Source of the DNA: Bacilli bacterium
Lineage (GTDB): Bacteria > Bacillota_I > Bacilli_A > RFN20 > UBA1709
Direction of reading: 5' to 3'
Length of the DNA: 64,000 nt
NCBI GenBank assembly: GCA_050949315.1
Contig: JBMNFL010000001.1
Span: 826,413-890,412, forward strand
How positions within the stretch are numbered: the first letter of the stretch is position 1; every line of letters begins with the position of its first letter. A program made the position numbers and the translations under genes. This document shows, one piece after another, positions 29,148-43,562 of the stretch. The notes under the pieces were generated by a model. It saw only the letters and a list, made by a program, of their open reading frames with translations, had not been told where the DNA came from and did not search any database.

Positions 29148-29158
29148 TTATACAAAAA

Positions 29159-29950: not shown

Positions 29951-30079
29951 CCAACCTGACCACACAACCTCAACTTTTTCAAAAAACATCTAAATCGACC
30001 ACTCGCGAACCCATGTTATCCAAACTGACCACTCGTCAAACACCGACATCTAAATCGCTCTGTCACGTTCAAAATCATG
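29951..30079. repeat. Two degenerate tandem ~65-bp units (CCAAmCTGACCAC...ACATCTAAATCG...)
   Basis: Unit 1 at 29951-30019 and unit 2 at 30020-30079 share CCAA(C/A)CTGACCAC and ACATCTAAATCG cores. Confidence 0.5.
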
Positions 30080-30207
30080 CCTTTGGACTTGTTCCCACGA
30101 ACCGATATTTTCACAAATTTTACACATTGTATTTTAACTCTCAAACCTCGAAAAGCCCAATATTACTGGACTTTTGACACACTCACTTCTCAACCCTTGA
30201 CATCAAT

Positions 30208-30307
30208 ACCACCGTCTCAACGTGGAACGAGAGCATCAGGTTGATGTCTGGTATGTATTCTTCGTTTTGTCCGTTCTCGGGAACAGGTCAATAGTGGTTT
30301 TTATGGG
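30208..30307. repeat. ~90-bp direct repeat, copy B
   Basis: Aligns with 29320-29413 at an 888-890 bp offset. Confidence 0.6.
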
Positions 30308-30366
30308 TACTCTCTGTTCAAGGGAACAGGTCAATGGTTTTTATCCGTTCGGGGGAACAAGTCGAT
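30271..30366. repeat. Three 22-bp iteron-like direct repeats (CCGTTCTCGGGAACAGGTCAAT / CTGTTCAAGGGAACAGGTCAAT / CCGTTCGGGGGAACAAGTCGAT)
   Basis: Starts at 30271, 30314 and 30345. A fourth copy sits in repeat A at 29381. Confidence 0.6.
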
Positions 30367-30757
30367 ACATGGGGTTTAATTCCTGTCATCTCCGGTGGCA
30401 AAGGTACTATCTATTAATAAAATGCACCGCTCAAATCAAATCGTTATAAGATGCACCCCTTTTGCACACCCTATTTTCAGCCGCCCTGATGTTTGTTATC
30501 CGTTATTCGCAGAATACCTCAATGGTACGCAGTTGAAAATCAATATTTTATAAACTTAGCTCCTGGAACGCCACAAATGCTGCATTTTTCCGGGACTAAT
30601 TTTTCTATATTTCCGCAGACAGGGCAGAGGAAGTAGAAAACTTCTTCTGTATGTCAAAGACTCTCTAATGCATCCTGATAAAGTCCGGCATGAACCTCTT
30701 CCGCTTTCAAAGCAAAGGTAAAGGAGAAAATTCCTACAATAGACTATAACACTTCAG

Positions 30758-33700
30758 TCAAACCTCCTCGCTTTTTTCTATTATTTGAACAAACAGTTCG
30801 GCGATTTGCGGGTCGAACTGTGTTCCTGATCCATTCTTAATAACATCAAGAGCAGCCTGTTTGCGATCCTTTAAGGGAAAATCGCCTCTGTTAAGTACGC
30901 GGTCGTAGGTTTCAGTAACAGCAATGATCCTTGACAACAGAGGAATTTGCTCTCCCTTAAGCCCTCTCGGATATCCCTTTCCATCCCATCTTTCATGATG
31001 GCCATAAACGTATTCTGCCAGGTCGAGTGTGTCATCAAAAAGATTCAAAATTCGGTATCCAACCACAGAATGCTGCTGCATTTTTTCACGCTCATCAGCC
31101 GATAAAGTCTCCTTATTTAGGACAGCTTCATCCAGCACAATTTTACCGATATCGTGTAGATAACCCGCCCTGCTTAATTTGCTGACTTCAGTATCAGGGA
31201 GATGCAGAGCCGTGCCTAATTTTGAGCACAACTCACTTACATCAACCGAGTGCTGTTTTTCTTTTGGATTCCTCGTGTATAAAGTCTCAATAATCGTGCC
31301 AATAATTTCTTTATTGATGGACTTACGATTCATCGTTTTATCCATATACATGGCGTTTTCTGCGTTTGCCATGATCTCATCAAGCAGCTGGTCTGGGCTT
31401 CGTTTCGTATCAAGACCAAGAGCAATACTGCTCTTGATGGCCTTAACGCGGGCGTCGGCAAACCCGGATTTAATCCTGGCAAGAATTTTCTCAGCATTTT
31501 CTTTGGTTGTGTTGGGTAGAAGAATGATGAATTCGTCACCTCCGACGCGAGCGACTACATCATTCTGCCTGCAAACCTGCAGCAGTATTTCAGACGATTT
31601 TTTAATTAGCTCGTCGCCAGCTCTATGTCCAAATATATCATTGGTCATCTTCAAACCATTGATATCAGCAAAGATGACAGATAGCGGAAGATTGTCCGGA
31701 TTGTCAATTTTTGCTCGGTTGTCCTCAAAGCATTTTCTGTTGTGCAGCCCGGCCAAGGTATCGTAACAGTTCAGATACTGGATCTCAGCTTCTTTCTGTT
31801 TTCGTTCGCTTATATCCATAAAAGTTACAACAGCGCCGGTTATTTCACCGTTTTTATTCTGGGGATATGAATAATATTCCACGTCAAAAGAAGTACCGTC
31901 AGCACGCCAGAATACTTCATCCTCTACGTGGGAACCTTCCCCTTTGATAAATGCTTTGAAAATACTGCAGTCATCAATGGGGAAGGGGTTACCATCTCTG
32001 CGGGTGTGATGAATCTGCCGGTGCATATTCTTTCCTAGTAATTCTTCCTGATCACGATATCCCAGCATTTCAATACAGCTTTTATTACAGAAAGTGCAGT
32101 TGCCATTCAAGTCAATGCCGTAAATGGCCTCTGCGGCTGTATCCAATATCAACTGAAGTTCGTCTTTACTCTCCTCCAATTGAAAATTCGCAATATGAAG
32201 CTCCTGGGTACGTTTCTGCACGTTAAACTCCAGGTTTTCTATAAACGATTGCATTTTGTCGGCAACCTTATTAAAGCTGTTTGATATCTGGCCAATTTCG
32301 TCATTTCGGATAATATCAACTCTTTTAGACAGGTTGCCGGAAGATAATTCATCAGATACCTGCAACAGGTTTTTCATTGGCCTTTTGCTTTTCAAAAACT
32401 CGAGCGCGTCTTCTTCATTAAGCGGCTTGCTGAACAGATATCCCTGTATCCTATCACAGTTGTGTTCTTGCAAATACTGTAACTGGCATTCGTGTTCGAC
32501 CCCTTCAGCAATTGTGCAGTGCCCAAGCTTATGTGACATCGAAATAATATCGCTTGTTATTGCTTTACTCAGGTCTGCATCTAACAACTTATCAATAAAA
32601 TACTTGTCAATTTTTAAGCAGTCGACGCTCAGCTCTTTTTCTCTGGCTAGGGAGGAATAACCAGTTCCAAAGTCATCTATAGCTATGTGAAGTCCGGTTT
32701 CCCTCAGTTTCTCGATAATGCTATTAACGGCTTCATAATCGGAGGCAAAGACCGATTCGGTAATCTCAATGCCAATATTCCGGGGATTAACCTGCATCTC
32801 GCTCATTAATTCAAACAGCCTGCTTGTAAAATCAGGTTTTAATAGCTGAATAGCAGAAATATTGATTGAAACGCCGACTTCATCATATCCACTCGCATTA
32901 AGCTTATTAAGGAAATGAAACGCGTTGACAATCACTTTTTCACCAATCGGTATAATGAGCTTTGTCTCTTCGGCAATCGGTATAAATTCAACCGGTGACA
33001 CCAGTCCGTGTTTTTCTGTTTTTAACCGTGCTAGCGCTTCAAACCCACAAACAGCATTTGTCTGTAGCTCAACAATCGGTTGGTATTGCAAAAACAACTC
33101 ATCATTAGTGCTTTCAAGAACTACGCCCGTAAGTGCTTCCCGGATGTCTCTTTCGCGGTTTATCTCAGCCTCCAGTTCCTCATTATAAAAACAAGCCTCA
33201 AAGTCTTTTTGTGAAACAGCAATAGATCTTTCTGACGCAATCAAGAGCTTTCTTAAGAGTAAATCCACATCGATTTCATCAACGTCCTGCTCAATTTCGA
33301 ATATCCCAATCCCGCCGCCTATTCGTTCAGTTGCAAATAAGGCTTCTAATGCTTCTGCTATGATATCGCTAAATTCAACCAGGTCGTTCTTGTCTTTGTA
33401 ATCAACAAGATAGAAGACAAACCGATTTTCATAGGTTTGGAACAGTAAGCGGGTATCGGAGCAATGCTGACTCAGTGTTTCAGCAGCCATTTTTATAAGG
33501 TTCTGTGTATAGTGAAACCCATAATTAGCGGTTAATAACTCAACTGTACTCAAATTGATACTGATGACTGCTCTTTTTAATCCATCCTTTTTCTTGATAT
33601 CATTATTCAGAAGCGCATCCAAATAATCACGATTATACAAGCCTGTCCATTTGTCATGCTCATTTATGTATCTGAGATGGTTCTCCATCTCTTTTCTGTC

Positions 33701-35263
33701 TGAGATATCGAGGATTATTCCTTCCAGCGCTTCAACTTCACCCTCATCATTATATATTCCTTGTCCCATCTCAAGAACCCATTTTCTTTTGCCGCTTGCA
33801 GTGATAATCTCATACTCATATCTAAACGGCTGCCCTTTTTCAAGGATTCGCTTCAATTCGTTCCACAATGCTTCGCGGTATTCAGGGGAAATGAGATCAT
33901 TATACGATAGGTCTCTATTGTTTAACAAGCTTTCGGATTTGTATCCAGTCAGATCATAGCAACCTTTTGAAACGTACTGCATCGTCCAGTCATGATCATA
34001 TTTGCACTTGTAAGCCAAGCCCGGTAGGTGAGACATTAGAATAGATTCTCTCCGTTCGTTCTCCCTCAATGCAAACTCAAAAAGTTTGCGTGGCGTAATG
34101 TCACGGGAGGAGCCTTGAAATCCCACCGCATTACCATTATCATCGCGGATGAAAGAAATACTCAACTCCAGCCAGATAACGGTGCCGTCTGCTTTATAAT
34201 GTTCAACTTCGATCGTCCGCGACCTGTTTTTATCAATTTCGGGATCTTTTTCTTTTTCTAACTCTTCATAAAAAATCGATTGGATTTTATGCAACGTTTG
34301 TGCTGGAAATTTCTCTTCCATCTTCCTATTCATATGCTCTTCGATGGATTCTCCAAGGAGTTTTTCAACAGAGGGACTTACATACGTCGTTTTCAGGGTT
34401 AAATCCATCTGCCAGACAACGTCTGACATATTTTCTGTGATGCTTCGATATTTCTTTTCGCTTTCAATCAGCGCAGCCATAGCGGCTTTTTGGTTGGTAA
34501 TGTCCTGAATAAGACACATATGATTAAGCTTGTTTTCCGCTAAAGGAGCAATAGACGCAACGACCATATATACCCATGCAACCGATCCATCGGGTTTAAC
34601 ATATCGCTTCTCCATTGAATAGCTTTTAATTTCACCGGCCTGCAGTTTATTAAAATTTTCTATATCTTCATCCAGGTCGTCCGGATATGTAATCTTTGCC
34701 CAGCCTAAATTAATGAGCTCTTCTTTTGTTCTGCCTGTAATTTGTTCATATGCAGAGTTTATTTTTATAATATCCTTGTCAGAGTGTTTAGGATCACGGC
34801 TGTGAGAAATTGCTATGCCAATAGGGGCCTCTTCAAAAAGCCTATCAAAGGCAAGAGTGTGTTCGTCAATTTTCTGCGATAGTGCTTGCTGAGCTCGCAT
34901 CAGTGCTACATGAACATTGATCCTGGCTTTCAATGAATCCATATGAAGTGGCTTTCGGATATAGTCTACGGCACCAAGCTTTAAGCCCTTGATTTCATTA
35001 TCCAATTCATCATAATTAGTCAATATTATGGTGCGCAGCTTCCGAAACCGCTCATCCCGATTCAATGATTCGAGAACCTGAAAACCATTCATATTAGGCA
35101 TATTGAGATCGAGTATGAGCAAGTTGATTTCATCATTCTCCGCAAGTACACGCAAAGCCTCTATACCGTCGCAAACAGTCAACACGGTATACTCACTGAG
35201 CATGTTTTTGATGATCAATCTGTCCGACGCCGAGTCGTCAGCTACTAAAATTTTAATTAGCAT
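30758..35263 (-). CDS. Giant multidomain c-di-GMP signalling protein: REC - 3xPAS - degenerate GGDEF - EAL - HAMP-like - PAS - GGDEF - HD-GYP
   Basis: Domain-by-domain:
- N-terminal receiver (ILVADDSASDRLI...LILDLNMPNMNG);
- three PAS segments;
- a GGDEF fold with YENRF in place of GGDEF;
- EAL (QPIVEL...GFEALAR...DDFGTGYSS...QGYLFSKP);
- a linker, then a fourth PAS;
- an intact GGDEF (ARVGGDEFIILL);
- HD-GYP (HDIGKI...HHERWDGKGYP).
ATG 35263 has an AAGGAGG RBS. The listed ORF start 35290 adds 9 unsupported codons. Confidence 0.8.
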   Translation of the reverse strand: MLIKILVADDSASDRLIIKNMLSEYTVLTVCDGIEALRVLAENDEINLLILDLNMPNMNGFQVLESLNRDERFRKLRTIILTNYDELDNEIKGLKLGAVDYIRKPLHMDSLKARINVHVALMRAQQALSQKIDEHTLAFDRLFEEAPIGIAISHSRDPKHSDKDIIKINSAYEQITGRTKEELINLGWAKITYPDDLDEDIENFNKLQAGEIKSYSMEKRYVKPDGSVAWVYMVVASIAPLAENKLNHMCLIQDITNQKAAMAALIESEKKYRSITENMSDVVWQMDLTLKTTYVSPSVEKLLGESIEEHMNRKMEEKFPAQTLHKIQSIFYEELEKEKDPEIDKNRSRTIEVEHYKADGTVIWLELSISFIRDDNGNAVGFQGSSRDITPRKLFEFALRENERRESILMSHLPGLAYKCKYDHDWTMQYVSKGCYDLTGYKSESLLNNRDLSYNDLISPEYREALWNELKRILEKGQPFRYEYEIITASGKRKWVLEMGQGIYNDEGEVEALEGIILDISDRKEMENHLRYINEHDKWTGLYNRDYLDALLNNDIKKKDGLKRAVISINLSTVELLTANYGFHYTQNLIKMAAETLSQHCSDTRLLFQTYENRFVFYLVDYKDKNDLVEFSDIIAEALEALFATERIGGGIGIFEIEQDVDEIDVDLLLRKLLIASERSIAVSQKDFEACFYNEELEAEINRERDIREALTGVVLESTNDELFLQYQPIVELQTNAVCGFEALARLKTEKHGLVSPVEFIPIAEETKLIIPIGEKVIVNAFHFLNKLNASGYDEVGVSINISAIQLLKPDFTSRLFELMSEMQVNPRNIGIEITESVFASDYEAVNSIIEKLRETGLHIAIDDFGTGYSSLAREKELSVDCLKIDKYFIDKLLDADLSKAITSDIISMSHKLGHCTIAEGVEHECQLQYLQEHNCDRIQGYLFSKPLNEEDALEFLKSKRPMKNLLQVSDELSSGNLSKRVDIIRNDEIGQISNSFNKVADKMQSFIENLEFNVQKRTQELHIANFQLEESKDELQLILDTAAEAIYGIDLNGNCTFCNKSCIEMLGYRDQEELLGKNMHRQIHHTRRDGNPFPIDDCSIFKAFIKGEGSHVEDEVFWRADGTSFDVEYYSYPQNKNGEITGAVVTFMDISERKQKEAEIQYLNCYDTLAGLHNRKCFEDNRAKIDNPDNLPLSVIFADINGLKMTNDIFGHRAGDELIKKSSEILLQVCRQNDVVARVGGDEFIILLPNTTKENAEKILARIKSGFADARVKAIKSSIALGLDTKRSPDQLLDEIMANAENAMYMDKTMNRKSINKEIIGTIIETLYTRNPKEKQHSVDVSELCSKLGTALHLPDTEVSKLSRAGYLHDIGKIVLDEAVLNKETLSADEREKMQQHSVVGYRILNLFDDTLDLAEYVYGHHERWDGKGYPRGLKGEQIPLLSRIIAVTETYDRVLNRGDFPLKDRKQAALDVIKNGSGTQFDPQIAELFVQIIEKSEEV

Positions 35264-35312
35264 TATGAATCCTCCTTCTTTAACCCACACCCACTCCAGG
35301 CTTTTTTTGACT

Positions 35313-35876
35313 TTATTTTAGTTCCTCAAGCAGTTTCCCAAGTAATTTAGAAAACCTGTCTTGTAATGGCACTATTTCATCTTCCTTTTCTTCATTAAAA
35401 GCTTTCTGTAATAACGCAGCTACAGCCTGCAGTGATTTAGCACCGATACTTCCGGAACTGCTCTTAACCTTATGTACGATTTGTGTAGCTTCAGTGTATC
35501 TTTTTTCACGTACTGCCGCTTCAAGCTTTTCCAAAGTATCTTGATTCTCGTTGCGGTATTCAATTAGCACCTGATTATACAATTCTTCGTTGCCGCCCAT
35601 ATTTTTAAAGCCTAGCTGCCGGTCAAGGACAGCTGTATCCGGTTCTATATTAGGTTCATTTTCAAGGATAATATCTTTTATGGTTTGAATAAAGTGATCG
35701 GGATTAATGGGCTTACTGATGTAATGAAATATTCCGCTTTGCTCGCACTTGTCCCGAACACCTAAAATCACATCCGCTGTCATTGCTATAATAGGGACTT
35801 GGCTTGAAATCGATCGGATATTCTCCGCCGCTTCATAGCCGTTCATGACAGGCATGTGCAAATCCATCAATATCAA
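35313..35876 (-). CDS. Truncated receiver (REC) domain fused to an Hpt phosphotransfer domain; likely N-terminally disrupted
   Basis: MILMDLHMPVMNG...IIAMTADV is the middle and C-terminal part of a receiver; it lacks the beta1 DD pocket. C-terminal Hpt motif HKVKSSSGSIGA. The REC reading frame is closed by a TGA upstream. Confidence 0.5.
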   Translation of the reverse strand: MILMDLHMPVMNGYEAAENIRSISSQVPIIAMTADVILGVRDKCEQSGIFHYISKPINPDHFIQTIKDIILENEPNIEPDTAVLDRQLGFKNMGGNEELYNQVLIEYRNENQDTLEKLEAAVREKRYTEATQIVHKVKSSSGSIGAKSLQAVAALLQKAFNEEKEDEIVPLQDRFSKLLGKLLEELK

Positions 35877-36061
35877 ATCGATGATGTCACGATGCTTCTG
35901 ATATAGCTCAACAGCTTCCTTTCCGTCGTTGGCAATATGAACCTGTTGACCTCATCGCGCTTCATTCGCATGATACGGTAGATGCCGAAATCAAGGTCAG
36001 ACTGGTCAAACTGAAACATCTCGCGGAGGATGCTCATTAATTTTTTCTGGTTATCAGTCAT
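35873..36061 (-). CDS. Short ORF (62 aa), apparently the N-terminal remnant of a disrupted gene; start overlaps the XRE gene stop (ATGA)
   Basis: MTDNQKKLMSILREMFQFDQSDLDFGIYRIM... runs 40 codons and then into the out-of-frame REC fragment. Confidence 0.35.
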   Translation of the reverse strand: MTDNQKKLMSILREMFQFDQSDLDFGIYRIMRMKRDEVNRFILPTTERKLLSYIRSIVTSSI

Positions 36062-36303
36062 TTTGTGGTACCTTCTTTCCCGCTGCCCGTGGCAGCGGCA
36101 TCATCGGGAATTGTTTCCATGATGTCTGTTATATCGCACTGAAGAACATCGCATATCTTTAACAGAACAGCGGTTGTAACATTCTCGTCTTTTCCGAGCT
36201 TCGCAAGTGAGGACGAGCTGATACCCGCTGCTTGTCGTAGCTCAGTTTTCTTCATGTTTCTGTCAATTAACAACTTCCACAGCTTCTTATAACTCATCTT
36301 CAT
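36058..36303 (-). CDS. XRE-family helix-turn-helix transcriptional regulator
   Basis: HTH_XRE signature (KTELRQAAGISSSSLAKLGKDENVTTAVLLKICDVLQC). Confidence 0.75.
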   Translation of the reverse strand: MKMSYKKLWKLLIDRNMKKTELRQAAGISSSSLAKLGKDENVTTAVLLKICDVLQCDITDIMETIPDDAAATGSGKEGTTK

Positions 36304-37945
36304 TGTCTGTCACCTCTTTATTCCATGATTCGCCGTACAGTTCGCAATTACCATCCGACAATTTCAAAACAGTATTACCCGTCAGAATGCGCTGCGTGTC
36401 TGGTTTATACGCAGCCTGTTTATCAAAGGCGATAAACACCTGTTTTGTACTTTGAACGTATATTTTCATAATGCCGTCGACAGCACCATCGCCGATGTTT
36501 TTCAAAATTAACGAATCGTGCGCTATGGCCGGTAGTGCAGTCAGGTTGAGTATTGCCAAGTCATAGATGACCATGCCTTTGTAATTCGAGCCTGTGCCGG
36601 TATCATCCGGCGTTTCAAACCTGTAACTGTTGTACTCGTTGAATGTGAGGCGCGGCGCTTTCCGCACGTCTGCAAAGAGCGAATCGTTATATTCCTTCAT
36701 TCTATCATTGATAGCACGTTCAATCTCATCAAGGATGCTTTCTATCGCGTGTTTCAACATTTCGTCAGCTTTTTTCTTTGCATCCTGCAGCTCGGTCAAT
36801 GTAAGGTACGCTTCATTCTGTGCTTTCAGCGCATCAATATGACCTTTAATTTCCGAATGCATATCCAAAAATTCTTTGGACAGGTTGCCGACAAAACCGA
36901 GCTGGTTGATTTCTGTCTGCACTGACTGGATTTGTTCCAGCAAAGCAGCAATCTCCAACTCGACCGATTGGCGCTCGCTTTTGAACTGTTCATCGAGTAT
37001 GGTCGCCAGCTTCTGATGGTATTTTTCTACTTCATACAGCTTCCGAATGTTCACATCAGGGAAAAACTCCTGTAAAGCAGATAAATCTGCTTCTGTCGGA
37101 TATAGACCATACGCGAGGCTAATATCCAGGAGGCTTACTCGGCGGCGTTTTGCCTGCAAATCGGTTTCGAGACGCAGCTTACTGCCCTGAAGCTGTGATT
37201 TTAAACGACTCTTTTCAATGTCTGCTTCGTTATGGCCTTCCACCTGTTCATCAGTCAGATTATCAAGCTGAACCTGCAGGCTGTGTATTTGCGCCAGATT
37301 TTCGTCATATTTTGTTTTGCCTCCAACGAGGTCAGGGACAAAGCGATACTTTCGGGCTTCTCGGAAAATCGACAGCCGCTTTTTCTGCTCCTCAAGATTG
37401 CCGTTGAAGGCTTCAATGTCCTTATATCTGTCAAACAGGCGGACAAGAATTTCGATGGATTTTTGCATTCCTTCTCCGGGCAAGCCCTTGAGAGGTTTGC
37501 GCTCATCGGTATTTTCTTTTCCGTATATCCTGAAGAAGCTGCTCATTGTCTCGCGGAAGGATAGCCCTGCGAAATCAATATGGTATTTTTCTTTCAACCA
37601 GTCGGCAAACTGCTGCTTCGTCCATACAACTCCTGTCAGCACATATCCCTCTGAGCATACATGAATATCGGTGGGCGATTCGGTACTGCGGGCAAAGTAG
37701 TACGGCGTTCCATCAAATTCAAATGTAAAGAAGATAGTGTGATTGCCAATGTGCTTCACACCATCACTGACAAGGTACGAGTTGCCACCAAAAGCAAAAT
37801 CAATGGCAAGCATGGCAGAGGATTTTCCGATTGAGTTTTCGCCATCCTCTTTTCCGAGAACGACGTTCAATCCCTCTTTGAAGCGGATTGGAGGTCGTTC
37901 TTTTCCTTTTTCCTTAAAGACCGGCGAGGTGATTTCTATAAGCAT
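36287..37945 (-). CDS. P-loop ATPase with long central coiled coil (ABC/SMC-like; LmuB/ABC-three-component ATPase-like)
   Basis: N-terminal Walker A (GKEDGENSIGKSS) in an SMC/RecF-type head. About 250 aa of heptad-rich coiled coil. C-terminal segment with acidic Walker-B-like hhhhD (MVIYDLAIL) and AHDS. RBS GAAAGGAGAGG. Confidence 0.65.
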   Translation of the reverse strand: MLIEITSPVFKEKGKERPPIRFKEGLNVVLGKEDGENSIGKSSAMLAIDFAFGGNSYLVSDGVKHIGNHTIFFTFEFDGTPYYFARSTESPTDIHVCSEGYVLTGVVWTKQQFADWLKEKYHIDFAGLSFRETMSSFFRIYGKENTDERKPLKGLPGEGMQKSIEILVRLFDRYKDIEAFNGNLEEQKKRLSIFREARKYRFVPDLVGGKTKYDENLAQIHSLQVQLDNLTDEQVEGHNEADIEKSRLKSQLQGSKLRLETDLQAKRRRVSLLDISLAYGLYPTEADLSALQEFFPDVNIRKLYEVEKYHQKLATILDEQFKSERQSVELEIAALLEQIQSVQTEINQLGFVGNLSKEFLDMHSEIKGHIDALKAQNEAYLTLTELQDAKKKADEMLKHAIESILDEIERAINDRMKEYNDSLFADVRKAPRLTFNEYNSYRFETPDDTGTGSNYKGMVIYDLAILNLTALPAIAHDSLILKNIGDGAVDGIMKIYVQSTKQVFIAFDKQAAYKPDTQRILTGNTVLKLSDGNCELYGESWNKEVTDNEDEL

Positions 37946-38112
37946 GAATATACCTCTCCTTTCTCATTGATGTCTATTGCGTTAAGCGCATATAGGCAGT
38001 CCATAACCGACAAAAAATCCGTTGCGTCGGAAAGCGAAGGCTTTATCCGAAGATAAAGGTCTTTCACTGCGATTGGATTATCTTGTACCTCTTTGAGCAC
38101 CGTTGGAATCAT
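37936..38112 (-). CDS. Small protein (58 aa) between the HNH-like and ATPase genes (possible middle component)
   Basis: ATG at 38112 (minus). The stop overlaps the ATPase start. No clear RBS, so the call is tentative. The longer listed 106-aa ORF overlaps the upstream gene. Confidence 0.3.
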   Translation of the reverse strand: MIPTVLKEVQDNPIAVKDLYLRIKPSLSDATDFLSVMDCLYALNAIDINEKGEVYSCL

Positions 38113-38143
38113 CGCCAAGGTGCTGTTTTTATATGAATACAGC

Positions 38144-39313
38144 TTATTCGGTAATTGCATCGAACACCTCACAGCTCTGCACGAAGTACGAAACCACAAT
38201 CTGGCAGAAAATTGCGTCCTGTAGCGTAACACGATGTATTTTATCTGCGATTTCATTGAAGATTTCGAGATGCGGTTTGTTTGCCTTTTTTAGTTTCTTA
38301 TACAATGCGTGAATCTGGTCTTGGATTTCATCGTAGTCAATTTCGCCGCTTTTATCCAGATTTATCATTATTTCTTTTATGCGTATGAAGTATGTGGTGA
38401 CGTAGTTGGTTACCGCATTGTAAAGCACCATGTCCTGAGACGGGCTAAGTTTCTGCTTGACTTCCTTTGGTTCAAAGGAAGCATCAGACAATTCCTTTTC
38501 CCCGAGTTTCCGTATTCTTTTGATTACGCCGACAATGCCCTTTTCCAAAGGCAGGTCATCAAGAAGACGGATGCTTTGTTTATGCGTAGACAACACCGTT
38601 TTTATTTCCTTTAGTTCAGCCATCAACTTCTTGCTGTCATCAAGGAGATATGTGGCATAGCACTGCGGGCACATTGCCATGAGGTTTTCGGGCGTAGTCG
38701 CTTTAGATTTATCTATCAAGCTAACTTCAAATGTATGAATGGCTTTTCCGTTTTTTGAAATAGTTAGCTGCCTCCCGCACCCCGGGAATGGACAGCACCC
38801 ATCTGTTTCTGCAAGTAAATAATCGCCGTACTTTTTCTTCAAATCGGATGCAAGAATCTGTTGCTGCTGTTTCTGGAGTTCATCCTGCGGAATCAGCCCA
38901 GCAGACTCCTGAATAATTTGTTCCAGCCATTCGGTGACTTTTTCTGCAACATTATCTGCATTTATGGTCGGTTCATAACCGACTAAATCCTCTGCAAATA
39001 AAGCCCTTGAAGCGGGGCTTCGCTTGCTTATGCTCCGTGTAAGTATTTTAGGTGTTAGATGATACACGATATTTCCCGCTAAATTCTTGGATAAACCTCG
39101 TTTTACATAGCTGCGAATGGTGTTATCGCTGAGTTTTGCGGAAGGGTCTTTACCCTTTGCCCAGTCAGCCTCAGATACAGTCGTAATCTTTGCCATTAAT
39201 TCGCGGAAAAAATACGGCACATCATCACCGTCGGCTAAATGCTTTTTCATAATTGGGAAAAGTGTTTTGAATTCCACGTCGGCTCGACACTCCTTTACTG
39301 AGATTTGCACCAC
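38144..39313 (-). CDS. HNH-nuclease-motif protein (putative effector of the ATPase-linked system)
   Basis: CCPFPGCGRQL...IHTFEV...ENLMAMCPQCY matches the CxxC...H...N...CxxC(H/Y) HNH zinc-finger layout. The rest is alpha-helical. GTG start is uncertain. Confidence 0.55.
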   Translation of the reverse strand: MVQISVKECRADVEFKTLFPIMKKHLADGDDVPYFFRELMAKITTVSEADWAKGKDPSAKLSDNTIRSYVKRGLSKNLAGNIVYHLTPKILTRSISKRSPASRALFAEDLVGYEPTINADNVAEKVTEWLEQIIQESAGLIPQDELQKQQQQILASDLKKKYGDYLLAETDGCCPFPGCGRQLTISKNGKAIHTFEVSLIDKSKATTPENLMAMCPQCYATYLLDDSKKLMAELKEIKTVLSTHKQSIRLLDDLPLEKGIVGVIKRIRKLGEKELSDASFEPKEVKQKLSPSQDMVLYNAVTNYVTTYFIRIKEIMINLDKSGEIDYDEIQDQIHALYKKLKKANKPHLEIFNEIADKIHRVTLQDAIFCQIVVSYFVQSCEVFDAITE

Positions 39314-39331
39314 GGTGCACTATGGTGCACC
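39314..39331. promoter_or_regulatory. Tandem GGTGCAC palindromes (GGTGCAC-tat-GGTGCAC) immediately upstream of the minus-strand operon start
   Basis: Two palindromic GTGCAC cores 10 bp apart. A related CACCATcaaATGGTG inverted repeat lies at 39500-39514. Confidence 0.4.
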
Positions 39332-39416
39332 AAACCATCCCCAGATTTCGAAGCCCCATTTTATATAATGAGAGCAGGTTAGGAACGGAAGGCGCTCCTG
39401 AGGAAACCCCAAATAT

Positions 39417-39445
39417 AGTATATCACACTTTTGTCCAAAAGTCAA
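39417..39445 (-). promoter_or_regulatory. sigma70 promoter on the minus strand (TTGACT-17-TATACT) for the HNH/ATPase/XRE operon
   Basis: Reverse complement of 39440-39445 is TTGACT and of 39417-39422 is TATACT. Exact 17-bp spacer. Confidence 0.6.
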
Positions 39446-39705
39446 ATATTATGTTTGAAAAAAGGATTAAATATTTCCTTGCGCATTCATTCCATAGCCC
39501 ACCATCAAATGGTGCGTTCCCTGATCTGGAACGGCTCAACGCTATGCGACGGTAGAACTTAATACACTCAGCTGACTATTGAGCAGGAAGCTGCATTCCG
39601 AAACGGAGCAATCTGTGAAGGACTGCGGTATGGTATCTTATTGCCATTTTTCAGCCAGCTGCTGCAGACCTCCGTTTCGAGACAACGAAAACGGAGGTCA
39701 TTTTA

Positions 39706-40092
39706 ATGAAAATTCAATGGAACTTTGCAGACGGCACGAAATCCGAGGTCGAGGTCAATGAGGAGCTTGGGGAATTTATCACCGCATCGCGGCGCGAGGA
39801 GGACAACCTTAGTCGCAAAGAACGGTATCACTGTTATTCGTTGGATGCCATTCTCTTTGAAGGGAAGGAATACGGGGACAACCACACTCCCGAAACAGAA
39901 GTGGAGACAGCGGAAAGAAACAAGCGCCTTTATGCTGCAATGAAAACGCTGACGGCGGTACAGCAAAAGCGTTTGCTTATGCTGGCGGACGGGCTTTCCT
40001 TGCGGGAAATCGCACGAGTCGAGGGCGTAGATCATCGTGCTGTCCGCGAGTCTATCGACAGCGCGAAGAAAAAAATCAAAAAAGTGTTCTGA
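39706..40092 (+). CDS. Sigma-70 region-4-like HTH regulatory protein (phage/ICE-type small sigma-like factor)
   Basis: C-terminal LTAVQQKRLLMLADGLSLREIARVEGVDHRAVRESIDSAKKKIKK is a sigma70_r4/LuxR-type HTH. RBS GGAGGT. A hairpin overlaps the RBS. Confidence 0.65.
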   Translation: MKIQWNFADGTKSEVEVNEELGEFITASRREEDNLSRKERYHCYSLDAILFEGKEYGDNHTPETEVETAERNKRLYAAMKTLTAVQQKRLLMLADGLSLREIARVEGVDHRAVRESIDSAKKKIKKVF

Positions 40093-40171
40093 GTACCTCC
40101 CCAAAACACCCTGCATTTCTCCGTATGCCGAGGGACACACAAAAACGTCCCTCGGAAAGGACGGATGAAAG

Positions 40172-40369
40172 ATGAAGCACGATTTAAAGATCAGCGTTTC
40201 CAAAAAGCCCGCCGAAGACGGCGTCGTCAGATGCCAGCGTGTCACCATGCGGGAACGATTGCTCCGTTACCTGTTCGGCGAGAAGCGCCGGGTGATGGTC
40301 ATAGTTCCCGGTGACACCGTAGAGAGCGTTTCCATCACGGAATTGCCCGGAGGTGACGAGCACCGATGA
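40172..40369 (+). CDS. Hypothetical small phage protein
   Basis: Intact ORF in the co-directional phage module. Confidence 0.4.
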   Translation: MKHDLKISVSKKPAEDGVVRCQRVTMRERLLRYLFGEKRRVMVIVPGDTVESVSITELPGGDEHR

Positions 40370-40489
40370 AAAAAGACACTGCTCCGCTGCTTCCAATGCC
40401 GATCAAGGCAAAGCCCTACGCGCATCAGGTCGCCGCTTTCAATTTTGTTTGCGAGCTGTTTGGTCTGGTTTCGACGGGAGGTGATTCCG

Positions 40490-40912
40490 ATGACGAAGGT
40501 CACGGTGAAATGCGCCCTGTGCGGGAAAGCATTCCAACGGTCGGAAAACCAAATCCGTGAAAACAACTTCTGCTGCCGAGAGCATTTTTACGAATGGAAC
40601 TCACAGCGCATGACCGAGTACAACCGCACGGATAACCCCATGAACAAGCCCGGCGGCGTATTAGAGTCGCGTGTGAAGCGGAGTCGCAAGCTCCGTGGCA
40701 CCGGCGAGGGCAAGGCGTATCCCAAGCTGCTCGGCAAACACGCGCACCGCAGAATCGCAGAAGCCATACTTGGCAGACCGCTCAAAAAGGGTGAAGTCGT
40801 CCACCACATCGACGGCAACAAGCTCAACAATGACCCCGCAAACCTCGAGGTGCTCCCGTCACAGTCGGAGCATTGCAAAATCCACGGTTTCGGGAAGAAA
40901 AAAGGCAGGTGA
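40490..40912 (+). CDS. Phage HNH endonuclease
   Basis: Zn-finger CALCGK...CCREH plus HHIDGNKLNNDPANLEVL...H. ATG 40490 follows a GGGAGGTGA RBS. Confidence 0.8.
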   Translation: MTKVTVKCALCGKAFQRSENQIRENNFCCREHFYEWNSQRMTEYNRTDNPMNKPGGVLESRVKRSRKLRGTGEGKAYPKLLGKHAHRRIAEAILGRPLKKGEVVHHIDGNKLNNDPANLEVLPSQSEHCKIHGFGKKKGR

Positions 40913-40984
40913 TGTAAATGAATATTTCCAGAAGTCAGGGCGTCGCTCTCTTAATGGAAATGGGTTAGCACCGGGAAAACGCTG

Positions 40985-42262
40985 GTGTCCATCGCCGCAG
41001 CAGGTGCGCTGTATAACGCCGGACGCATCAAACGAGCACTGGTCGTAGCACCGTTGTCGGTCGTCGGCGTATGGGACGAGGAGTTCGGTAAGTTTGCCGC
41101 CTTTGATTATACCCTCGCCGTGCTCAAGGGCAGCGGCGAGAAGAAGGCAGATACGCTCCGGCACATGACCGGCGACGCGCTGCAGGTGGCTGTCGTCAAC
41201 TACGAATCGGCGTGGCGCTTGGAGAAGGAGCTCGCAGCATGGCGTCCCGACCTGATCATCGCCGACGAGGGGCACAAAATCAAGACACACAACATCTCGG
41301 TGTCCAAGGCGATGCACCGGCTGGGCGCAGCGGCAAAATATCGGCTGCTTTTGACAGGAACGCCGGTCACGAATAAGGCAATCGACGTCTTCTCCCAGTA
41401 CAAGTTCCTCGACCCGCGCATCTTCGGACAGTCGTTTTACAGCTTCCGCAACACCTATTTTTACATGACCGGCTACGGCAATCATACGCCGGTGCTTAAA
41501 AAGTCGATGGAGCCGGAACTGACACGCCGTATGCACAGCATCGCGTTTCGGGCGACAAAGAAGGACTGCCTTGACCTGCCGGAAACGACCGACATCATCC
41601 GCAAGGTTGAGCTGGAGCCGAGGGCGGTGAAGCTCTACCAAAGTCTCGTGCAGGAGAGCTACGTCGAGCTATCCGAGGGCGAGGTCACCATCACCAACGT
41701 GCTCACCAAGCTGCTGCGACTATCGCAGCTCACGGGCGGCTTCATCGGAAGCGACGAGAGCAGTGCCGCCGAACAGGTATCAACGGCGAAGCTCGACGTG
41801 CTGGAGGACATCCTCGACGCGGCAATCGAGGAGAACCGCAAGCTCGTCGTAATCGCCCGCTTCGTACCGGAGCTTGACGCGATCTGTGCCATGCTCGAAA
41901 AGAAGCGCGTTAACTATTCGCTCATCAAGGGCGGCGTAAAAGACCGCGACGAGCAGGTCGCCCGATTCCAGAATGACCCCGATGTCCCCATTTTTGTCGG
42001 GCAGATCGCAACCGCAGGTCTTGGGCTGACGCTCACGGCGGCAAGCACGATGGTCTTTTACTCGCTGGACTACAGCATGAGCAACTTCGAGCAATGCAAA
42101 GCCCGTATTCACCGCGCCGGTCAGCGGATGCCATGTACCTACATCTATCTCACCGCGCAGGGCACGGTCGATGAGAAGGTACTCAAAGCCCTGAAGAACA
42201 AGGCGAACCTTGCCAAAACGCTGGTCGATGACTACCGCTACGGCAACAACCCATTTATGTAA
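40985..42262 (+). CDS. SNF2-family (DEAD/DEAH-box) helicase, N-terminally disrupted by an apparent frameshift (a 16-codon ORF at 40918-40968 carries the start and the beginning of motif I)
   Basis: Motifs STGKTL (I), IIADEGHKIK (II), LLLTGTPVTN (III) and a C-terminal helicase domain (QNDPDVPIFVGQIATAGLGLTLTAAS...HRAGQ). Upstream, MNISRSQGVALLMEMG* in the -1 frame follows an AGGTGA RBS. Confidence 0.7.
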   Translation: MSIAAAGALYNAGRIKRALVVAPLSVVGVWDEEFGKFAAFDYTLAVLKGSGEKKADTLRHMTGDALQVAVVNYESAWRLEKELAAWRPDLIIADEGHKIKTHNISVSKAMHRLGAAAKYRLLLTGTPVTNKAIDVFSQYKFLDPRIFGQSFYSFRNTYFYMTGYGNHTPVLKKSMEPELTRRMHSIAFRATKKDCLDLPETTDIIRKVELEPRAVKLYQSLVQESYVELSEGEVTITNVLTKLLRLSQLTGGFIGSDESSAAEQVSTAKLDVLEDILDAAIEENRKLVVIARFVPELDAICAMLEKKRVNYSLIKGGVKDRDEQVARFQNDPDVPIFVGQIATAGLGLTLTAASTMVFYSLDYSMSNFEQCKARIHRAGQRMPCTYIYLTAQGTVDEKVLKALKNKANLAKTLVDDYRYGNNPFM

Positions 42263-42276
42263 AGGAGCATATCACA

Positions 42277-42699
42277 ATGGACAATTCAGAAAAAATGTTT
42301 GAACTCGCAGACCGGCTTAAGGCACTGCGGGACGAGAAAAAGGATGCCGAGCAGCGCGTCAAGAAGTTAAACGCCGCGCTCGACGAAACCGATGCTGCGC
42401 TGGCGCAGCTCATGACTGATACCGAAACGCAGAACTTCACTCGCTCCGGCACGATGTTCTGCCTCACCAACACAACCCGCGCATCGGCGACTGCCGACCG
42501 CAAGGACGAGCTATTTGAAGCACTTCGCGCAGAGGGCTACGGCGGACTGGTTTACGAGACCGTCAATGCCAACTCTCTCTCGGCTTTCGTGCGGGAGCAG
42601 ATATCCGAGAATGACGATGTGTTACCCGACTGGCTTGAAGGGCTGGTCAGCGTATTCGAAAAAACCACTGTGGGCGTTCGTAAAGCGCCCAGCAAATAA
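42277..42699 (+). CDS. Hypothetical phage protein (N-terminal coiled coil)
   Basis: RBS AAAGGAG, ATG 42277. Confidence 0.5.
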   Translation: MDNSEKMFELADRLKALRDEKKDAEQRVKKLNAALDETDAALAQLMTDTETQNFTRSGTMFCLTNTTRASATADRKDELFEALRAEGYGGLVYETVNANSLSAFVREQISENDDVLPDWLEGLVSVFEKTTVGVRKAPSK

Positions 42700-42720
42700 T
42701 GAAAAGGAAGGTATTTCACA

Positions 42721-43497
42721 ATGAAAAACAATGAAAACACGGCACTTACCACTACGAACAGCGCGTTTATGGCACTGAAGGACTTCAACCTGAACGACGC
42801 GCTCTCCGAGGAGCTTTCCGGCTTGTCCGGCAGCTTCGAGAGAATCAAAATCCCTGCCGGAGGCATGACGTTGTTCGAGATACCCGGTGAAAACCCCGAC
42901 AGCCCTGAAACGGTCAAGGAGTTTTCCGCAGTTATCCTGCACCATCATCCGCTGTATGCCTACTACACGGACAAGTATACCGGCGGCTCCAACCCGCCCG
43001 ATTGCGGCAGCTTCGACGGCGTTACCGGCGAAGGCAACCCCGGTGGCGACTGTGCCAATTGTCCGTATAACAAATTCGGCTCCGGCGAGAACGGTGCAAA
43101 AGCGTGTAAAAACCGCCGCCGCATCTACTTGCTGCGAGAGGGCGAGATTTTCCCGATGATTCTTTCACTTCCGACCGGCTCTCTCAAAGATTTTACTCGT
43201 TACATCATGCGATTGCTCTCAAAGGGCAAGAAGTCTAACGCCGTTGTCACGAAATTCACACTGAGGAAGGCGACCAATAACAATGGCATCGCTTACTCGC
43301 AGGCGCAGTTTACAGTCGACCGCGACCTGACCGATGATGAGTACGCGCTCATCGCAGGGCTAACCGAGCAGGTCAAGACCTTCTCCACACGCGTTGGCTA
43401 CGATACCGAACCGGCAACGGATGTTCCCCCCGCAGGGATTGCGCCCGCTGTCAATGTTGACCCCGAAACCGGCGAGGTTGTTGAACCTCTCGCCTAA
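42721..43497 (+). CDS. Hypothetical phage replication-module protein with a Cys-rich (Zn-ribbon-like) segment
   Basis: CGSFDG...CANCPYNKFG...ACKNRRR. RBS AAAGGAAGG. Confidence 0.5.
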   Translation: MKNNENTALTTTNSAFMALKDFNLNDALSEELSGLSGSFERIKIPAGGMTLFEIPGENPDSPETVKEFSAVILHHHPLYAYYTDKYTGGSNPPDCGSFDGVTGEGNPGGDCANCPYNKFGSGENGAKACKNRRRIYLLREGEIFPMILSLPTGSLKDFTRYIMRLLSKGKKSNAVVTKFTLRKATNNNGIAYSQAQFTVDRDLTDDEYALIAGLTEQVKTFSTRVGYDTEPATDVPPAGIAPAVNVDPETGEVVEPLA

Positions 43498-43562
43498 ATA
43501 CACCGCCGCAAGGTCGGGTGGCAGCTGCTGCCCGACCTGTAGCGGCAGACAGGAGCATGAAC

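What the first reader, a model, noticed from the sequence alone, without database searches (positions are those of the whole stretch)
36058..39445. Candidate Lamassu/ABC-three-component-like antiphage operon: HNH-motif protein + small protein + coiled-coil P-loop ATPase + XRE regulator
The minus-strand operon has its own TTGACT-17-TATACT promoter. It encodes:
- a 389-aa protein with a CxxC...H...N...CxxC HNH zinc-finger layout;
- a small 58-aa ORF;
- a 552-aa SMC/RecF-like P-loop ATPase with a ~250-aa coiled coil and an acidic C-terminal Walker-B-like segment;
- an XRE HTH.
The order effector, small middle gene, ABC ATPase is what ABC-3C / Lamassu-family defence systems show. The operon sits in the divergent lysogeny-switch-like position of a prophage, a common site for defence cargo. 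It is not a recognisable RecF/RecN/SbcC homologue.
Basis: partly seen in the sequence, partly recalled or inferred. Interest (0 to 1): 0.8.

Follow-up and report, generated by a model that had tools for sequence, protein, structure and literature searches.

The report
Phage-borne Lamassu (ABC-3C) defence operon
The flagged operon is a recognisable member of the known Lamassu/ABC-3C anti-phage family carried by a prophage; its 'HNH nuclease' lacks the catalytic histidine, and its XRE gene and leader belong to a conserved phage 'cargo slot' that holds other defence cassettes in related phages.

Summary
Minus-strand genes 39277..36058 encode LmuA (Pfam CTD11, E 1e-38), LmuC (MC7, 2e-24), LmuB (DUF2326; PADLOC LmuB; Foldseek to solved LmuB) and an HTH_26 XRE protein. 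They sit behind a conserved TTGACT-17-TGnTATACT promoter, at the left end of a siphovirus-like prophage. This is a short, type II Lamassu (ABC-3C), a known kind.

Corrections:
- LmuA is 377 aa, not 389; the small gene is 74 aa, not 58.
- Walker B is LPAIAHD-S, a deviant form. The acidic tail is not Walker B.

New points:
- The XRE gene follows LmuB in almost every related locus, but it is far commoner than Lamassu.
- The XRE gene, a conserved leader (three exactly 10-nt-phased direct repeats before the SD) and the N-terminal domain of LmuA frame other defence cassettes in related phages.
- The downstream methylase is cut to 42 codons at a junction with a truncated host response-regulator gene.

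Overall: an ordinary family member in an interesting context.

The parts
39417..39445 (-). Sigma-70-type promoter: TTGACT, 17-nt spacer, TG-n-TATACT
   Evidence: Scores 10/12 with an extended -10. The -35 and -10 columns are conserved in 37 related leaders.
39432..39467 (-). Conserved blocks flanking the -35 box: ATCCTTTTTTCAAAC upstream and GGACA in the spacer. The family consensus is (G)TCCTTATCGCAAAC ... TTGACAAATGGACA, with GTCC/GGAC as inverted half-sites.
   Evidence: Alignment A4. Their function was not tested.
39356..39370 (-). Conserved leader block CATTATATAAAATGG
   Evidence: Conserved in A4. Also present upstream of non-Lamassu cargo in phages TPDSL_ph1 and NatCom_9287.
39303..39344 (-). 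Conserved block TCTGGGGATGGTTTGG, followed by three direct repeats with an exact 10-nt period (TGGTGCAcca / TAGTGCAccg / TGGTGCAaat). The array ends 6 nt before the SD.
   Evidence: TRF finds period 10 and the pattern is enriched in the window. Of 54 distinct leaders, 45 have at most 2 summed mismatches, against 0 of 5400 shuffles. RNAalifold finds no conserved RNA fold.
39290..39296 (-). Shine-Dalgarno AAAGGAG for lmuA
   Evidence: Read from the sequence; the column is conserved in A4.
38144..39277 (-). lmuA (377 aa). It has an all-helical N-terminal domain (residues 1-125; 39277..38903), an HNH-derived Cys4 zinc-finger domain (residues 158-212; 38806..38642) and ABC-3C CTD11 (residues 240-372; 38560..38162).
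37936..38160 (-). lmuC / ABC-3C middle component MC7 (74 aa). It overlaps lmuA by 17 nt and lmuB by 10 nt.
   Evidence: Pfam MC7 2e-24 and MC6 5e-7. A 74-aa gene is called in public contigs.
36287..37945 (-). lmuB (552 aa), a coiled-coil ABC ATPase of the short type. Walker A GENSIGKS lies at 37843..37820. The deviant Walker B LPAIAHD-S lies at 36535..36512. There is a GTGSN signature-like motif and no CxxC zinc hook.
   Evidence: Pfam DUF2326; PADLOC LmuB 2.7e-12; motif alignment; Foldseek to YydD and LmuB structures; PHROG 5467.
36058..36303 (-). XRE-family HTH_26 gene (81 aa). Its start overlaps the end of lmuB by 17 nt, and its stop overlaps the start of the next gene (ATGA).
   Evidence: Pfam HTH_26 1.1e-21. 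NCBIfam VanU scores 101.7 bits, below the 150 cut-off. The gene is present directly after LmuB in almost all related loci at 58-82% identity.
35936..36061 (-). Remnant (42 codons) of a 1058-aa N6_N4 DNA methyltransferase gene that follows the XRE gene in the intact relative
   Evidence: PADLOC MTase_III 3.4e-8. It is 100% identical to the first 42 codons in L001, L003 and L011, and similarity stops at 35936.
35313..35935 (-). N-terminally truncated host response-regulator/Hpt gene, fused at the junction 35936/35935
   Evidence: Pfam Response_reg matches only model positions 45-110, plus Hpt. The same junction occurs in Lactonifactor sp. BIOML-A5 (L010 aligns across window 32383-42130).
39502..39661 (+). 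DUF2800 RNA motif (Rfam RF02960). It leads the divergent phage operon that starts with a sigma-70-region-4-like gene (39706..40092).
   Evidence: cmscan gives 113.4 bits, E 1.9e-21. The same arrangement occurs in at least 24 related loci. The sigma-like gene matches phrog_11138 and phrog_1740.

Best explanation
The operon is a short, type II Lamassu (ABC-three-component) defence system, LmuA-LmuC-LmuB, carried as cargo at the left end of a temperate siphovirus-like prophage.

Shown here:
- All three proteins belong to the curated ABC-3C/Lamassu families.
- The genes overlap, so they are probably translationally coupled.
- They are transcribed from one strong, conserved promoter, divergent from the phage early operon.

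Inferred by analogy with the solved Vibrio, Salmonella and Bacillus systems:
- A LmuB dimer with LmuC holds one LmuA through its CTD in an inactive state.
- Binding of DNA ends or replication intermediates of an invading phage or plasmid to the LmuB heads and LmuC releases LmuA.
- Freed LmuA oligomerises through CTD11 and acts on DNA, aborting the infection.

The output step is the weak point. LmuA's only enzyme-like module is an HNH-derived zinc finger that has lost the general-base histidine, so it may bind DNA rather than cut it.

The co-transcribed XRE protein is best read as the regulator of the whole phage cargo operon, which ancestrally continued into a methylase/helicase module. It may repress through the three phased repeats in the leader. 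It is not a Lamassu subunit.
For: - Family membership: Pfam CTD11, MC7 and DUF2326; PADLOC LmuA and LmuB.
- Fold matches: LmuB to YydD and LmuB structures; LmuA to LmuA structures and Cap5/McrA HNH domains.
- LmuB has Walker A intact and a deviant Walker B. The literature describes LmuB in the same way (PMC10586767 and 10.1101/2025.06.23.660979).
- HNH is a listed effector type of short Lamassu (PMC12663957).
- The four-gene block is conserved in about 80 genomes and in viral contigs.
- The element is a prophage, and both large proteins match PHROG families over their full length.
- XRE and leader as a frame shared with other cargo.
Against: - The catalytic His of the HNH motif is absent in the window (F183-E184) and across about 170 homologues down to 25% identity. 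The last His after CxxC is variable.
- The N-terminal domain has no conserved polar residues. No effector chemistry is therefore evident.
- No experiment exists for this clade.
- The LmuB model has low confidence (pLDDT 60).
- A system-level DefenseFinder/PADLOC call was not run.
- XRE binding to the repeats is untested. One lineage (TTCCTCA repeats with an unchanged helix) fits the idea poorly.
Confidence: 0.8

Rival explanations
1. The system is Lamassu by descent but works without a nuclease. The His-less HNH zinc finger and the helical N-terminal domain act as a DNA-binding or adaptor module. Released, oligomerised LmuA would block replication or transcription by binding, or would recruit another effector. 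This would resemble the published 'clade O' Lamassu, which seems to lack an effector domain.
For: - Tyr-Glu replaces the His-His/Asp-His of McrA and ScoMcrA in profile alignments.
- Across 66 divergent relatives only the Cys4 ligands, N198 and E157 are conserved.
- The same N-terminal domain heads the first gene of unrelated cargo cassettes, and also forms the N-terminal half of a PADLOC LmuA model made only of NTD plus CTD.
- A clade without an effector is described in PMC12663957.
Against: - E184, D189 and N198 are common (about 90% in close relatives) and could support a non-canonical metal site.
- About 40% of close homologues keep CxxC-H.
- All tested Lamassu systems need an enzymatic LmuA.
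Confidence: 0.35
2. The XRE gene is a controller (C-protein-like) of the restriction-modification or methylase module that originally followed it. It is only incidentally adjacent to Lamassu. In this window it is a leftover of that module, which has been deleted.
For: - In 34 of about 64 related loci the gene directly after the XRE gene is a DNA methyltransferase.
- XRE homologues precede methylases or restriction enzymes in phages without Lamassu (phi1605, CWou-2020b, NatCom_9287, NatCom_11578).
- In this window the XRE stop overlaps the methylase start (ATGA).
Against: - The XRE gene stays intact and 100% identical where the methylase is truncated (this window, L010) or frameshifted (L003, L011).
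- It also precedes non-methylase genes: DruA-like, DUF4238, HATPase_c_3 and recombinase genes.
- Its helix-3 variants track the repeat unit in the leader at the head of the operon.
Confidence: 0.3
3. The 552-aa ATPase is a housekeeping SMC-like repair protein (SbcC/RecN/RecF class) and the operon is chromosomal DNA-repair machinery.
For: There are weak coiled-coil-level matches to the Rad50 and TrlF NCBIfam models (5e-5 and 7e-4, far below their cut-offs). SMC and Rad50 heads appear lower in the Foldseek list.
Against: - The best matches are LmuB and YydD.
- There is no SbcD/Mre11 partner.
- The neighbours are CTD11 and MC7 proteins, phage genes and defence genes.
- The genes are carried by phages.
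Confidence: 0.02
4. The operon is a decaying, non-functional remnant in a grounded prophage whose left end has been deleted.
For: The adjacent methylase is cut to 42 codons and fused to a truncated host gene. The methylase is frameshifted in Hespellia.
Against: All four ORFs are intact, with SD sequences and overlaps preserved. They are 99-100% identical in three different genomes (L003/L011, L010, L001), while the flanks differ by about 5-7%. The promoter and leader are intact.
Confidence: 0.05

Closest known systems
Type II / short Lamassu: Vibrio cholerae DdmABC (= LmuACB) and Salmonella enterica LmuACB (PDB 9HQU, 9HQX, 9NY5)
   Same: The gene order is effector, small middle component, coiled-coil ABC ATPase. 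LmuA carries an ABC-3C C-terminal docking domain. LmuB is about 550-630 aa with Walker A intact, a deviant Walker B and, as in the Vibrio clade, no zinc hook.
   Different: The effector module is an HNH-derived zinc finger without the catalytic His, plus a helical NTD, instead of a Cap4 nuclease. The docking domain is CTD11 and the middle component is MC7, versus CTD7 and MC3 in Vibrio. Sequence identity to solved LmuB is only about 13-16%. This system is phage-borne and co-transcribed with an XRE gene.
ABC-3C systems of Krishnan et al. 2020, as encoded in Pfam (PF20277 CTD11, PF20292 MC7, PF10088 DUF2326/YydD)
   Same: All three models match above their gathering scores. This is the family under which public records already annotate homologues, for example Streptococcus phage phiStag1.
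   Different: Nothing differs at the family level. The original paper could not be read here, so its own description of the CTD11 effector is unknown to me.
HNH (His-Me finger) nucleases: CBASS Cap5, EcoKMcrA, ScoMcrA
   Different: The general-base His is replaced (Y/F-E consensus). The terminal metal-ligand His is Y, H or A. The domain is therefore not demonstrably a nuclease.
Phage and satellite defence hotspots (P2/P4-type cargo loci between conserved flanks)
   Same: Variable defence cassettes sit at one conserved position between constant flanks in a family of temperate phages. The cassettes seen are two Lamassu clades, a PDC-S06 three-gene set and a PDC-S53 helicase, followed by methylases and restriction genes.
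   Different: The flanks here are a promoter and leader with three phased repeats, a shared N-terminal coding domain of the first cargo gene, and an XRE gene. The comparison with the P2/P4 hotspots comes from my own knowledge and was not tested.
VanU / YozG-type small HTH_26 regulators
   Same: The 81-aa protein has the same single-domain HTH_26 architecture. It scores 101.7 bits on the VanU model.
   Different: The score is below the 150-bit cut-off, and the context is a phage defence operon, not a van cluster.

Membership tests
Lamassu type II / ABC-3C | LmuB: SMC/Rad50-like ABC ATPase with the head split by a coiled coil | tested here: met
   PF10088 4e-15. PADLOC LmuB 2.7e-12 over residues 15-459. 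Walker A GENSIGKS, signature-like GTGSN and Walker B hhhhHD. Helices span residues 159-423. The top Foldseek hits are YydD 4.5e-14 and LmuB chains at about 1e-9; the model's pLDDT is only 60.
Lamassu type II / ABC-3C | Deviant Walker B (no catalytic Glu after the Asp), as reported for LmuB | tested here: met
   D477 is followed by Ser or Thr in all 12 divergent homologues aligned.
Lamassu type II / ABC-3C | Small middle component (LmuC/MC) encoded between the effector and the ATPase | tested here: met
   PF20292 MC7 2e-24. The 74-aa gene overlaps both neighbours.
Lamassu type II / ABC-3C | LmuA with a C-terminal ABC-3C docking domain (CTD) | tested here: met
Lamassu type II / ABC-3C | LmuA N-terminal enzymatic effector domain | tested here: inconclusive
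   An HNH fold is present, but the catalytic His is missing family-wide. The NTD has no conserved polar residues.
Lamassu type II / ABC-3C | Protection against phage or plasmids; abortive-infection phenotype | not testable with these tools
   This needs cloning and challenge experiments.
Lamassu type II / ABC-3C | System-level call by DefenseFinder or PADLOC | not tested
   Only the PADLOC HMMs were scanned protein by protein. LmuC had no PADLOC hit.
HNH / His-Me finger nuclease | Beta-beta-alpha-metal fold with a zinc-binding Cys pair on each side | tested here: met
HNH / His-Me finger nuclease | General-base His at the end of the first strand | tested here: not met
   The position aligns to E184 (McrA HH and ScoMcrA DH versus the family's YE). 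It is E in 93 of 104 close homologues and variable in distant ones. No alternative conserved His exists.
HNH / His-Me finger nuclease | Metal-ligand His/Asn in the helix (CxxC-H) | tested here: not met
   It is Y207 in the window. Among 104 close homologues the position is Y 43, H 39, Q 10, F 8.
HNH / His-Me finger nuclease | Structural Asn of the motif | tested here: met
   N198 is invariant in 104 close homologues and at least 80% conserved in the divergent set.
Housekeeping SbcC/RecN/RecF | Match to curated equivalog models, with repair-gene neighbours | tested here: not met
   The best NCBIfam hit is Rad50 at 21.5 bits against a cut-off of 700. The neighbours are phage and defence genes.
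XRE/HTH_26 regulator | Cro/C1-type HTH domain | tested here: met
   PF13443 1.1e-21.
XRE/HTH_26 regulator | Binds an operator in its own operon (autoregulation) | not testable with these tools
   The only evidence is indirect: helix-3 variants track the leader repeat unit.
VanU (NF000090) | Score above the equivalog cut-off | tested here: not met
   It scores 101.7 bits against a cut-off of 150.

The most novel reading that the evidence does not exclude
A widespread family of temperate Firmicute/Actinobacteria gut phages carries the DUF2800 RNA next to the locus. In these phages a fixed frame delimits an exchangeable defence-cargo slot. The frame consists of a promoter, a leader with three exactly 10-nt-phased repeats, a shared ~130-aa N-terminal domain on the first cargo gene, and a cognate XRE repressor whose recognition helix co-varies with the repeat unit. 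The slot can hold two Lamassu clades, PDC-S06, PDC-S53 and others. The Lamassu clade found here uses a catalytically dead HNH zinc finger, so its output would be non-nucleolytic.
Probability: 0.3. Interest if true: 0.6.

Novelty: new member of a known kind. Interest (0 to 1): 0.35.

Why it matters
For the finding as posed, the result is mainly tidy annotation. A prophage in a Lactonifactor/Hespellia-like gut Firmicute carries a Lamassu system that current Pfam and PADLOC models already recognise.

Two points could matter more:
- A large Lamassu clade (at least 195 clusters at 50% identity) has an effector whose only enzyme-like fold lacks the catalytic histidine. This bears on whether Lamassu always kills through an enzymatic LmuA. 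It also gives a concrete test case for the 'effector-less' clade noted in the literature.
- The conserved leader, N-terminal domain and XRE frame around different defence cassettes suggest how gut temperate phages regulate and swap defence cargo. The frame also offers a simple sequence handle for finding new cargo systems: three phased repeats upstream plus an XRE gene downstream.

Tried and rejected
- Sequence searches of LmuB and LmuA against PDB chains gave nothing useful for LmuB and only a weak McrA hit for single-sequence LmuA. A family profile of the HNH region was needed.
- Rfam has no family for the lmuA leader. RNAalifold on 37 leaders predicted 0 pairs, so I dropped the riboswitch or structured-RNA reading.
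- I considered an upstream ORF in the leader, using the ATG in AAAATGGGG or GGGGATGG. I rejected it because neither ATG is conserved in A4 and the 10-nt period is not a multiple of three.
- I checked by eye whether the repeats form a catabolite-responsive (cre) site or a palindrome. They do not. Only the window's first unit happens to be palindromic.
- A scan of viral contigs for TGGTNCA x3 returned mostly unrelated iteron-like arrays. It says nothing about the binder. Only about 8 hits were the Lamassu leader.
- XRE as a strict Lamassu subunit is rejected. At least 529 XRE hits in IMG/VR compare with 7 for LmuB, and 42 INPHARED phages compare with 5.
- P0260 (the N-terminal domain fused to NRPS domains) looks like a chimeric or truncated metagenomic call and was ignored.
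- A literature search with CTD11/MC7/DUF2326 as words returned only noise. Krishnan et al. 2020 is not held.
- I considered a chimeric assembly as the explanation for the junction at 35936. I rejected it because an independent Lactonifactor assembly spans the junction.

Full report
**1. What is there**

Four overlapping minus-strand ORFs lie between 39313 and 36058. It is the best promoter-like site in the region at 10/12. Promoter-like matches as a class are not enriched there (7 found, 9.2 expected). The real support is that the -35 and -10 columns are conserved in 37 aligned leaders from related loci.

Curated models identify all four products:
- The first protein carries PF20277, 'C-terminal domain 11 of ABC-3C systems' (9.7e-39).
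- The small protein is PF20292, 'ABC-3C middle component 7' (2e-24).
- The 552-aa protein is PF10088 DUF2326 (4e-15).
- The last is PF13443 HTH_26 (1.1e-21).

PADLOC models call the first protein LmuA (3.8e-12, N-terminal 140 residues only) and the ATPase LmuB (2.7e-12). No NCBIfam repair-protein model comes near its cut-off.

**2. Corrections to the observation**

- The first gene most likely starts at GTG 39277, giving 377 aa. Homologues and public gene calls begin at MEFKTLF, and the 12 extra codons of the maximal ORF lie on conserved non-coding repeats.
- The small gene is 74 aa (38160..37936). It has its own GAGGTG SD, Pfam coverage from residue 3, and a 74-aa gene is called in public contigs.
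- All gene junctions overlap: 17, 10 and 17 nt, then ATGA into the next gene.
- LmuB has Walker A G35-ENSIGKS, a signature-like D-x-GTG(S/T)N, Walker B L471-PAIAHD477 followed by Ser (no catalytic Glu), and no CxxC zinc hook.

**3. Membership**

The literature equates ABC-3C with type II Lamassu. It describes LmuB as a Rad50-like ATPase with a deviant Walker B, LmuC as the 'middle component', and LmuA as an effector domain plus a docking CTD.

An AF2 model of LmuB has low confidence (pLDDT 60). Even so, it finds Bacillus YydD (9a6c, 4.5e-14) and solved LmuB chains (9ux7, 9hqx, 9hqu, about 1e-9) ahead of cohesin, condensin and Rad50 heads.

The LmuA model (pLDDT 77) matches the following:
- EcoKMcrA (7.2).
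- IscB/Cas9 HNH domains.

At 552 aa and without a zinc hook, LmuB is of the 'short' type. HNH is a listed effector class of short Lamassu. The operon is therefore a member of a known family.

**4. The HNH problem**

Pfam does not see an HNH domain in the window protein. A profile of the middle region from 36 divergent homologues does match HNH nucleases: EcoKMcrA 1.2e-6, ScoMcrA 1e-3, an 'HNH endonuclease' 5e-4 and Cap5 0.03. Half of the members also touch PF01844 weakly. Homology to HNH is therefore real.

In those alignments the McrA 'HH' and ScoMcrA 'DH' dipeptides, whose second His is the general base, align to the family's Y/F-E (F183-E184 in the window). The CxxC-H histidine aligns to Y207.

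- In 104 close homologues, position 184 is E 93, D 4, C 4. Position 207 is Y 43, H 39. H181 is not conserved.
- In 66 representatives down to about 25% identity, no His is conserved anywhere in the domain. Only the four Cys, N198, E157 and hydrophobic positions persist.
- The ~125-residue helical N-terminal domain has no conserved polar residue at all.

By the defining features of His-Me finger nucleases, the fold test is met and the catalytic test is not. Whether E184, D189 and N198 support some non-canonical activity cannot be decided here.

**5. Context**

- Window 39.7-64 kb is a siphovirus-like prophage. It encodes a sigma-region-4-like protein, an HNH endonuclease, an SNF2 helicase, PolA, a primase-methylase fusion, terminase, portal, protease, major capsid, major tail and tape-measure proteins.
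- LmuA and LmuB match PHROG families 6948 and 5467 over their full length.
- On the opposite strand, between the Lamassu promoter and the sigma-like gene, lies a strong match to the Rfam DUF2800 RNA motif (39502..39661, 113 bits). The same divergent arrangement occurs in at least 24 related loci, including Peptoniphilus and Gardnerella.
- Near-identical copies of the operon occur in Lactonifactor sp. BIOML-A5, Hespellia stercorisuis DSM 15480 and a Clostridia MAG.
- In the MAG the operon runs on into a 1058-aa N6_N4 methylase, a 1060-aa ResIII helicase and an AAA_13 protein.
- In the window only 42 methylase codons remain. Similarity to the relatives stops at 35936, where the sequence continues into a response-regulator/Hpt gene that lacks its first ~44 receiver residues.
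- The Lactonifactor assembly spans the same junction, so this is a real deletion or fusion, not an assembly artefact.

**6. The XRE gene is part of a frame, not of Lamassu**

An XRE homologue directly follows LmuB in nearly every one of about 80 related loci. It is 58-82% identical even where LmuB is 33% and LmuA 25% identical. But the XRE family is far commoner than this Lamassu:
- At least 529 hits in IMG/VR against 7 for LmuB.
- 42 INPHARED phages against 5.
- Only 23 of the 80 best XRE loci have LmuB upstream.

The gene after the XRE gene is a DNA methyltransferase in 34 of about 64 loci. Otherwise it is DruA-like, DUF4238, HATPase_c_3, AAA_21, HNH or a recombinase.

In phages without Lamassu, the XRE gene either heads a methylase or restriction module (phi1605, CWou-2020b, NatCom_11578) or closes a different cargo cassette (TPDSL_ph1, NatCom_9287).

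**7. The leader**

Between the -10 box and the SD, 37 aligned leaders share three features:
- A block CATTATAnAAAAtGG.
- A block TcTGGGGATgGTTTGG.
- Three direct repeats with an exact 10-nt period. In the window these are TGGTGCA, TAGTGCA and TGGTGCA at 39332..39306.

Of 54 distinct leaders, 45 have at most 2 summed mismatches between the three 7-mers. None of 5400 shuffles reaches that. There is no Rfam match and no conserved RNA fold. Together with the helical-turn spacing, this points to a DNA-level protein-binding site.

The same architecture (ATTATA block, three phased repeats, SD) precedes the non-Lamassu cargo of TPDSL_ph1 and NatCom_9287-like phages, with a different repeat unit (GGTAGGC or CAGGCTT).

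The XRE recognition helix tracks the unit:
- ISSSSLAKL...NVTT goes with TGGTNCA.
- ISSAS[LI]AKL, VSAASIAKL and ISAASIAKL...NITT go with ATAGG-type units.
- ISTASMAKL goes with TGTACAT.

These observations are not phylogenetically independent, and one lineage (TTCCTCA) fits poorly. I therefore treat 'XRE binds the repeats and autoregulates the cargo operon' as a hypothesis at about 0.45.

**8. The N-terminal domain is shared by other cargo**

The first gene of each alternative cassette in this frame begins with a homologue of LmuA's N-terminal domain. hhalign of the LmuA family against TPDSL gene 1 gives 94.7% probability, E 6e-8. PADLOC LmuA model PDLC03857, positions 1-142, matches at 1e-13 to 2e-18.

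The cassettes are:
- NTD protein plus a PDC-S53 helicase.
- NTD protein, a 221-aa protein and a PDC-S06 AAA_13-like ATPase.
- A second Lamassu clade in which the NTD protein and the LmuA-CTD protein are separate genes, followed by LmuC and LmuB.

No second copy of the domain exists in the window. The domain may be an adaptor, or simply the 5' homology arm for cassette exchange. This is unresolved.

**9. Mechanism, with status**

Shown:
- Family membership of the three proteins.
- An intact Walker A and a deviant Walker B.
- Operon structure, promoter and leader conservation.
- Phage carriage.

Inferred from solved homologues:
- A LmuB dimer with LmuC sequesters monomeric LmuA through its CTD.
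- DNA ends or replication intermediates trigger release.
- LmuA then oligomerises through its CTD.

Uncertain:
- What LmuA then does, given the His-less HNH.
- Whether XRE represses through the repeats.

**10. Verdict**

The catalytically suspect effector and the conserved leader/NTD/XRE cargo frame are the parts worth a second look. Interest 0.35.

Noticed in passing
window 39502..39661 (+): There is a strong match to the Rfam DUF2800 RNA motif (RF02960, 113 bits). It lies upstream of the sigma-region-4-like gene and is divergent from the Lamassu promoter. The same arrangement occurs in at least 24 related loci from Clostridia, Peptoniphilus and Gardnerella.
   Followed up: partly
window 35873..36061 and junction 35936/35935: The 1058-aa N6_N4 methylase that follows the XRE gene in relatives is cut to 42 codons here. 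It is fused to a host response-regulator/Hpt gene that lacks about 44 N-terminal receiver residues. The same junction occurs in Lactonifactor sp. BIOML-A5. In Hespellia the methylase is instead broken into fragments.
   Followed up: partly
window 39303..39370 (-); loci L183 1250..1340, L187 3390..3470: The conserved leader has an ATTATA block and three direct repeats with an exact 10-nt period just before the SD. The repeat unit differs by lineage and tracks XRE helix-3 variants. The leader is also present ahead of non-Lamassu cargo.
   Followed up: partly
window 38903..39277 (-); L183 1337..1735; L257 6446..6850; L225 6295..6700: The ~130-aa helical N-terminal domain of LmuA is shared by the first gene of unrelated defence cassettes (PDC-S53 helicase, PDC-S06 ATPase set, another Lamassu clade) that occupy the same leader-to-XRE frame.
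   Followed up: partly
L225 6950..7100; L230 6980..7110; L233 3880..4010: In the alternative cassettes, the C-terminus of gene 1 and the N-terminus of gene 2 carry the same peptide motif (VNQYG-D/E-x-x-VHIDHV-E/D-N-L). I have no explanation for this.
   Followed up: no
window 45913..48915 (+): A 1000-aa phage protein combines an N-terminal DNA primase (phrog_1829) with a C-terminal DNA methyltransferase (phrog_498).
   Followed up: no
window 1..64000: G+C content changes in steps: 0.31-0.39 up to 27 kb, a 0.52 spike at 28-29 kb, 0.40-0.46 for 29-39 kb (host signalling genes plus the Lamassu operon), then 0.47-0.59 for the prophage. The Lamassu operon (about 0.44) is less G+C-rich than the rest of the prophage.
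   Followed up: no
locus L182 (Streptococcus phage phiStag1, PP091924) 4138..4362: In this public record the MC7 homologue is annotated as 'MafI family immunity protein', while its neighbours are annotated as CTD11 and DUF2326. This is likely a naming artefact for the Lamassu middle component.
   Followed up: no
window 36058..36303 (-): The XRE protein scores 101.7 bits on the NCBIfam VanU equivalog model (cut-off 150). It is therefore a relative of the small VanU/YozG-type regulators but not VanU itself.
   Followed up: no
window 30758..35290 (-): A 1510-aa host protein lies directly downstream. From reading the translation it looks like a multi-domain signalling protein (receiver, PAS, GGDEF/EAL and HD-GYP-like motifs). 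No terminator-like site was found on the minus strand between the XRE gene and this gene, so read-through from the Lamassu promoter is possible. The domains were not checked with a tool.
   Followed up: no
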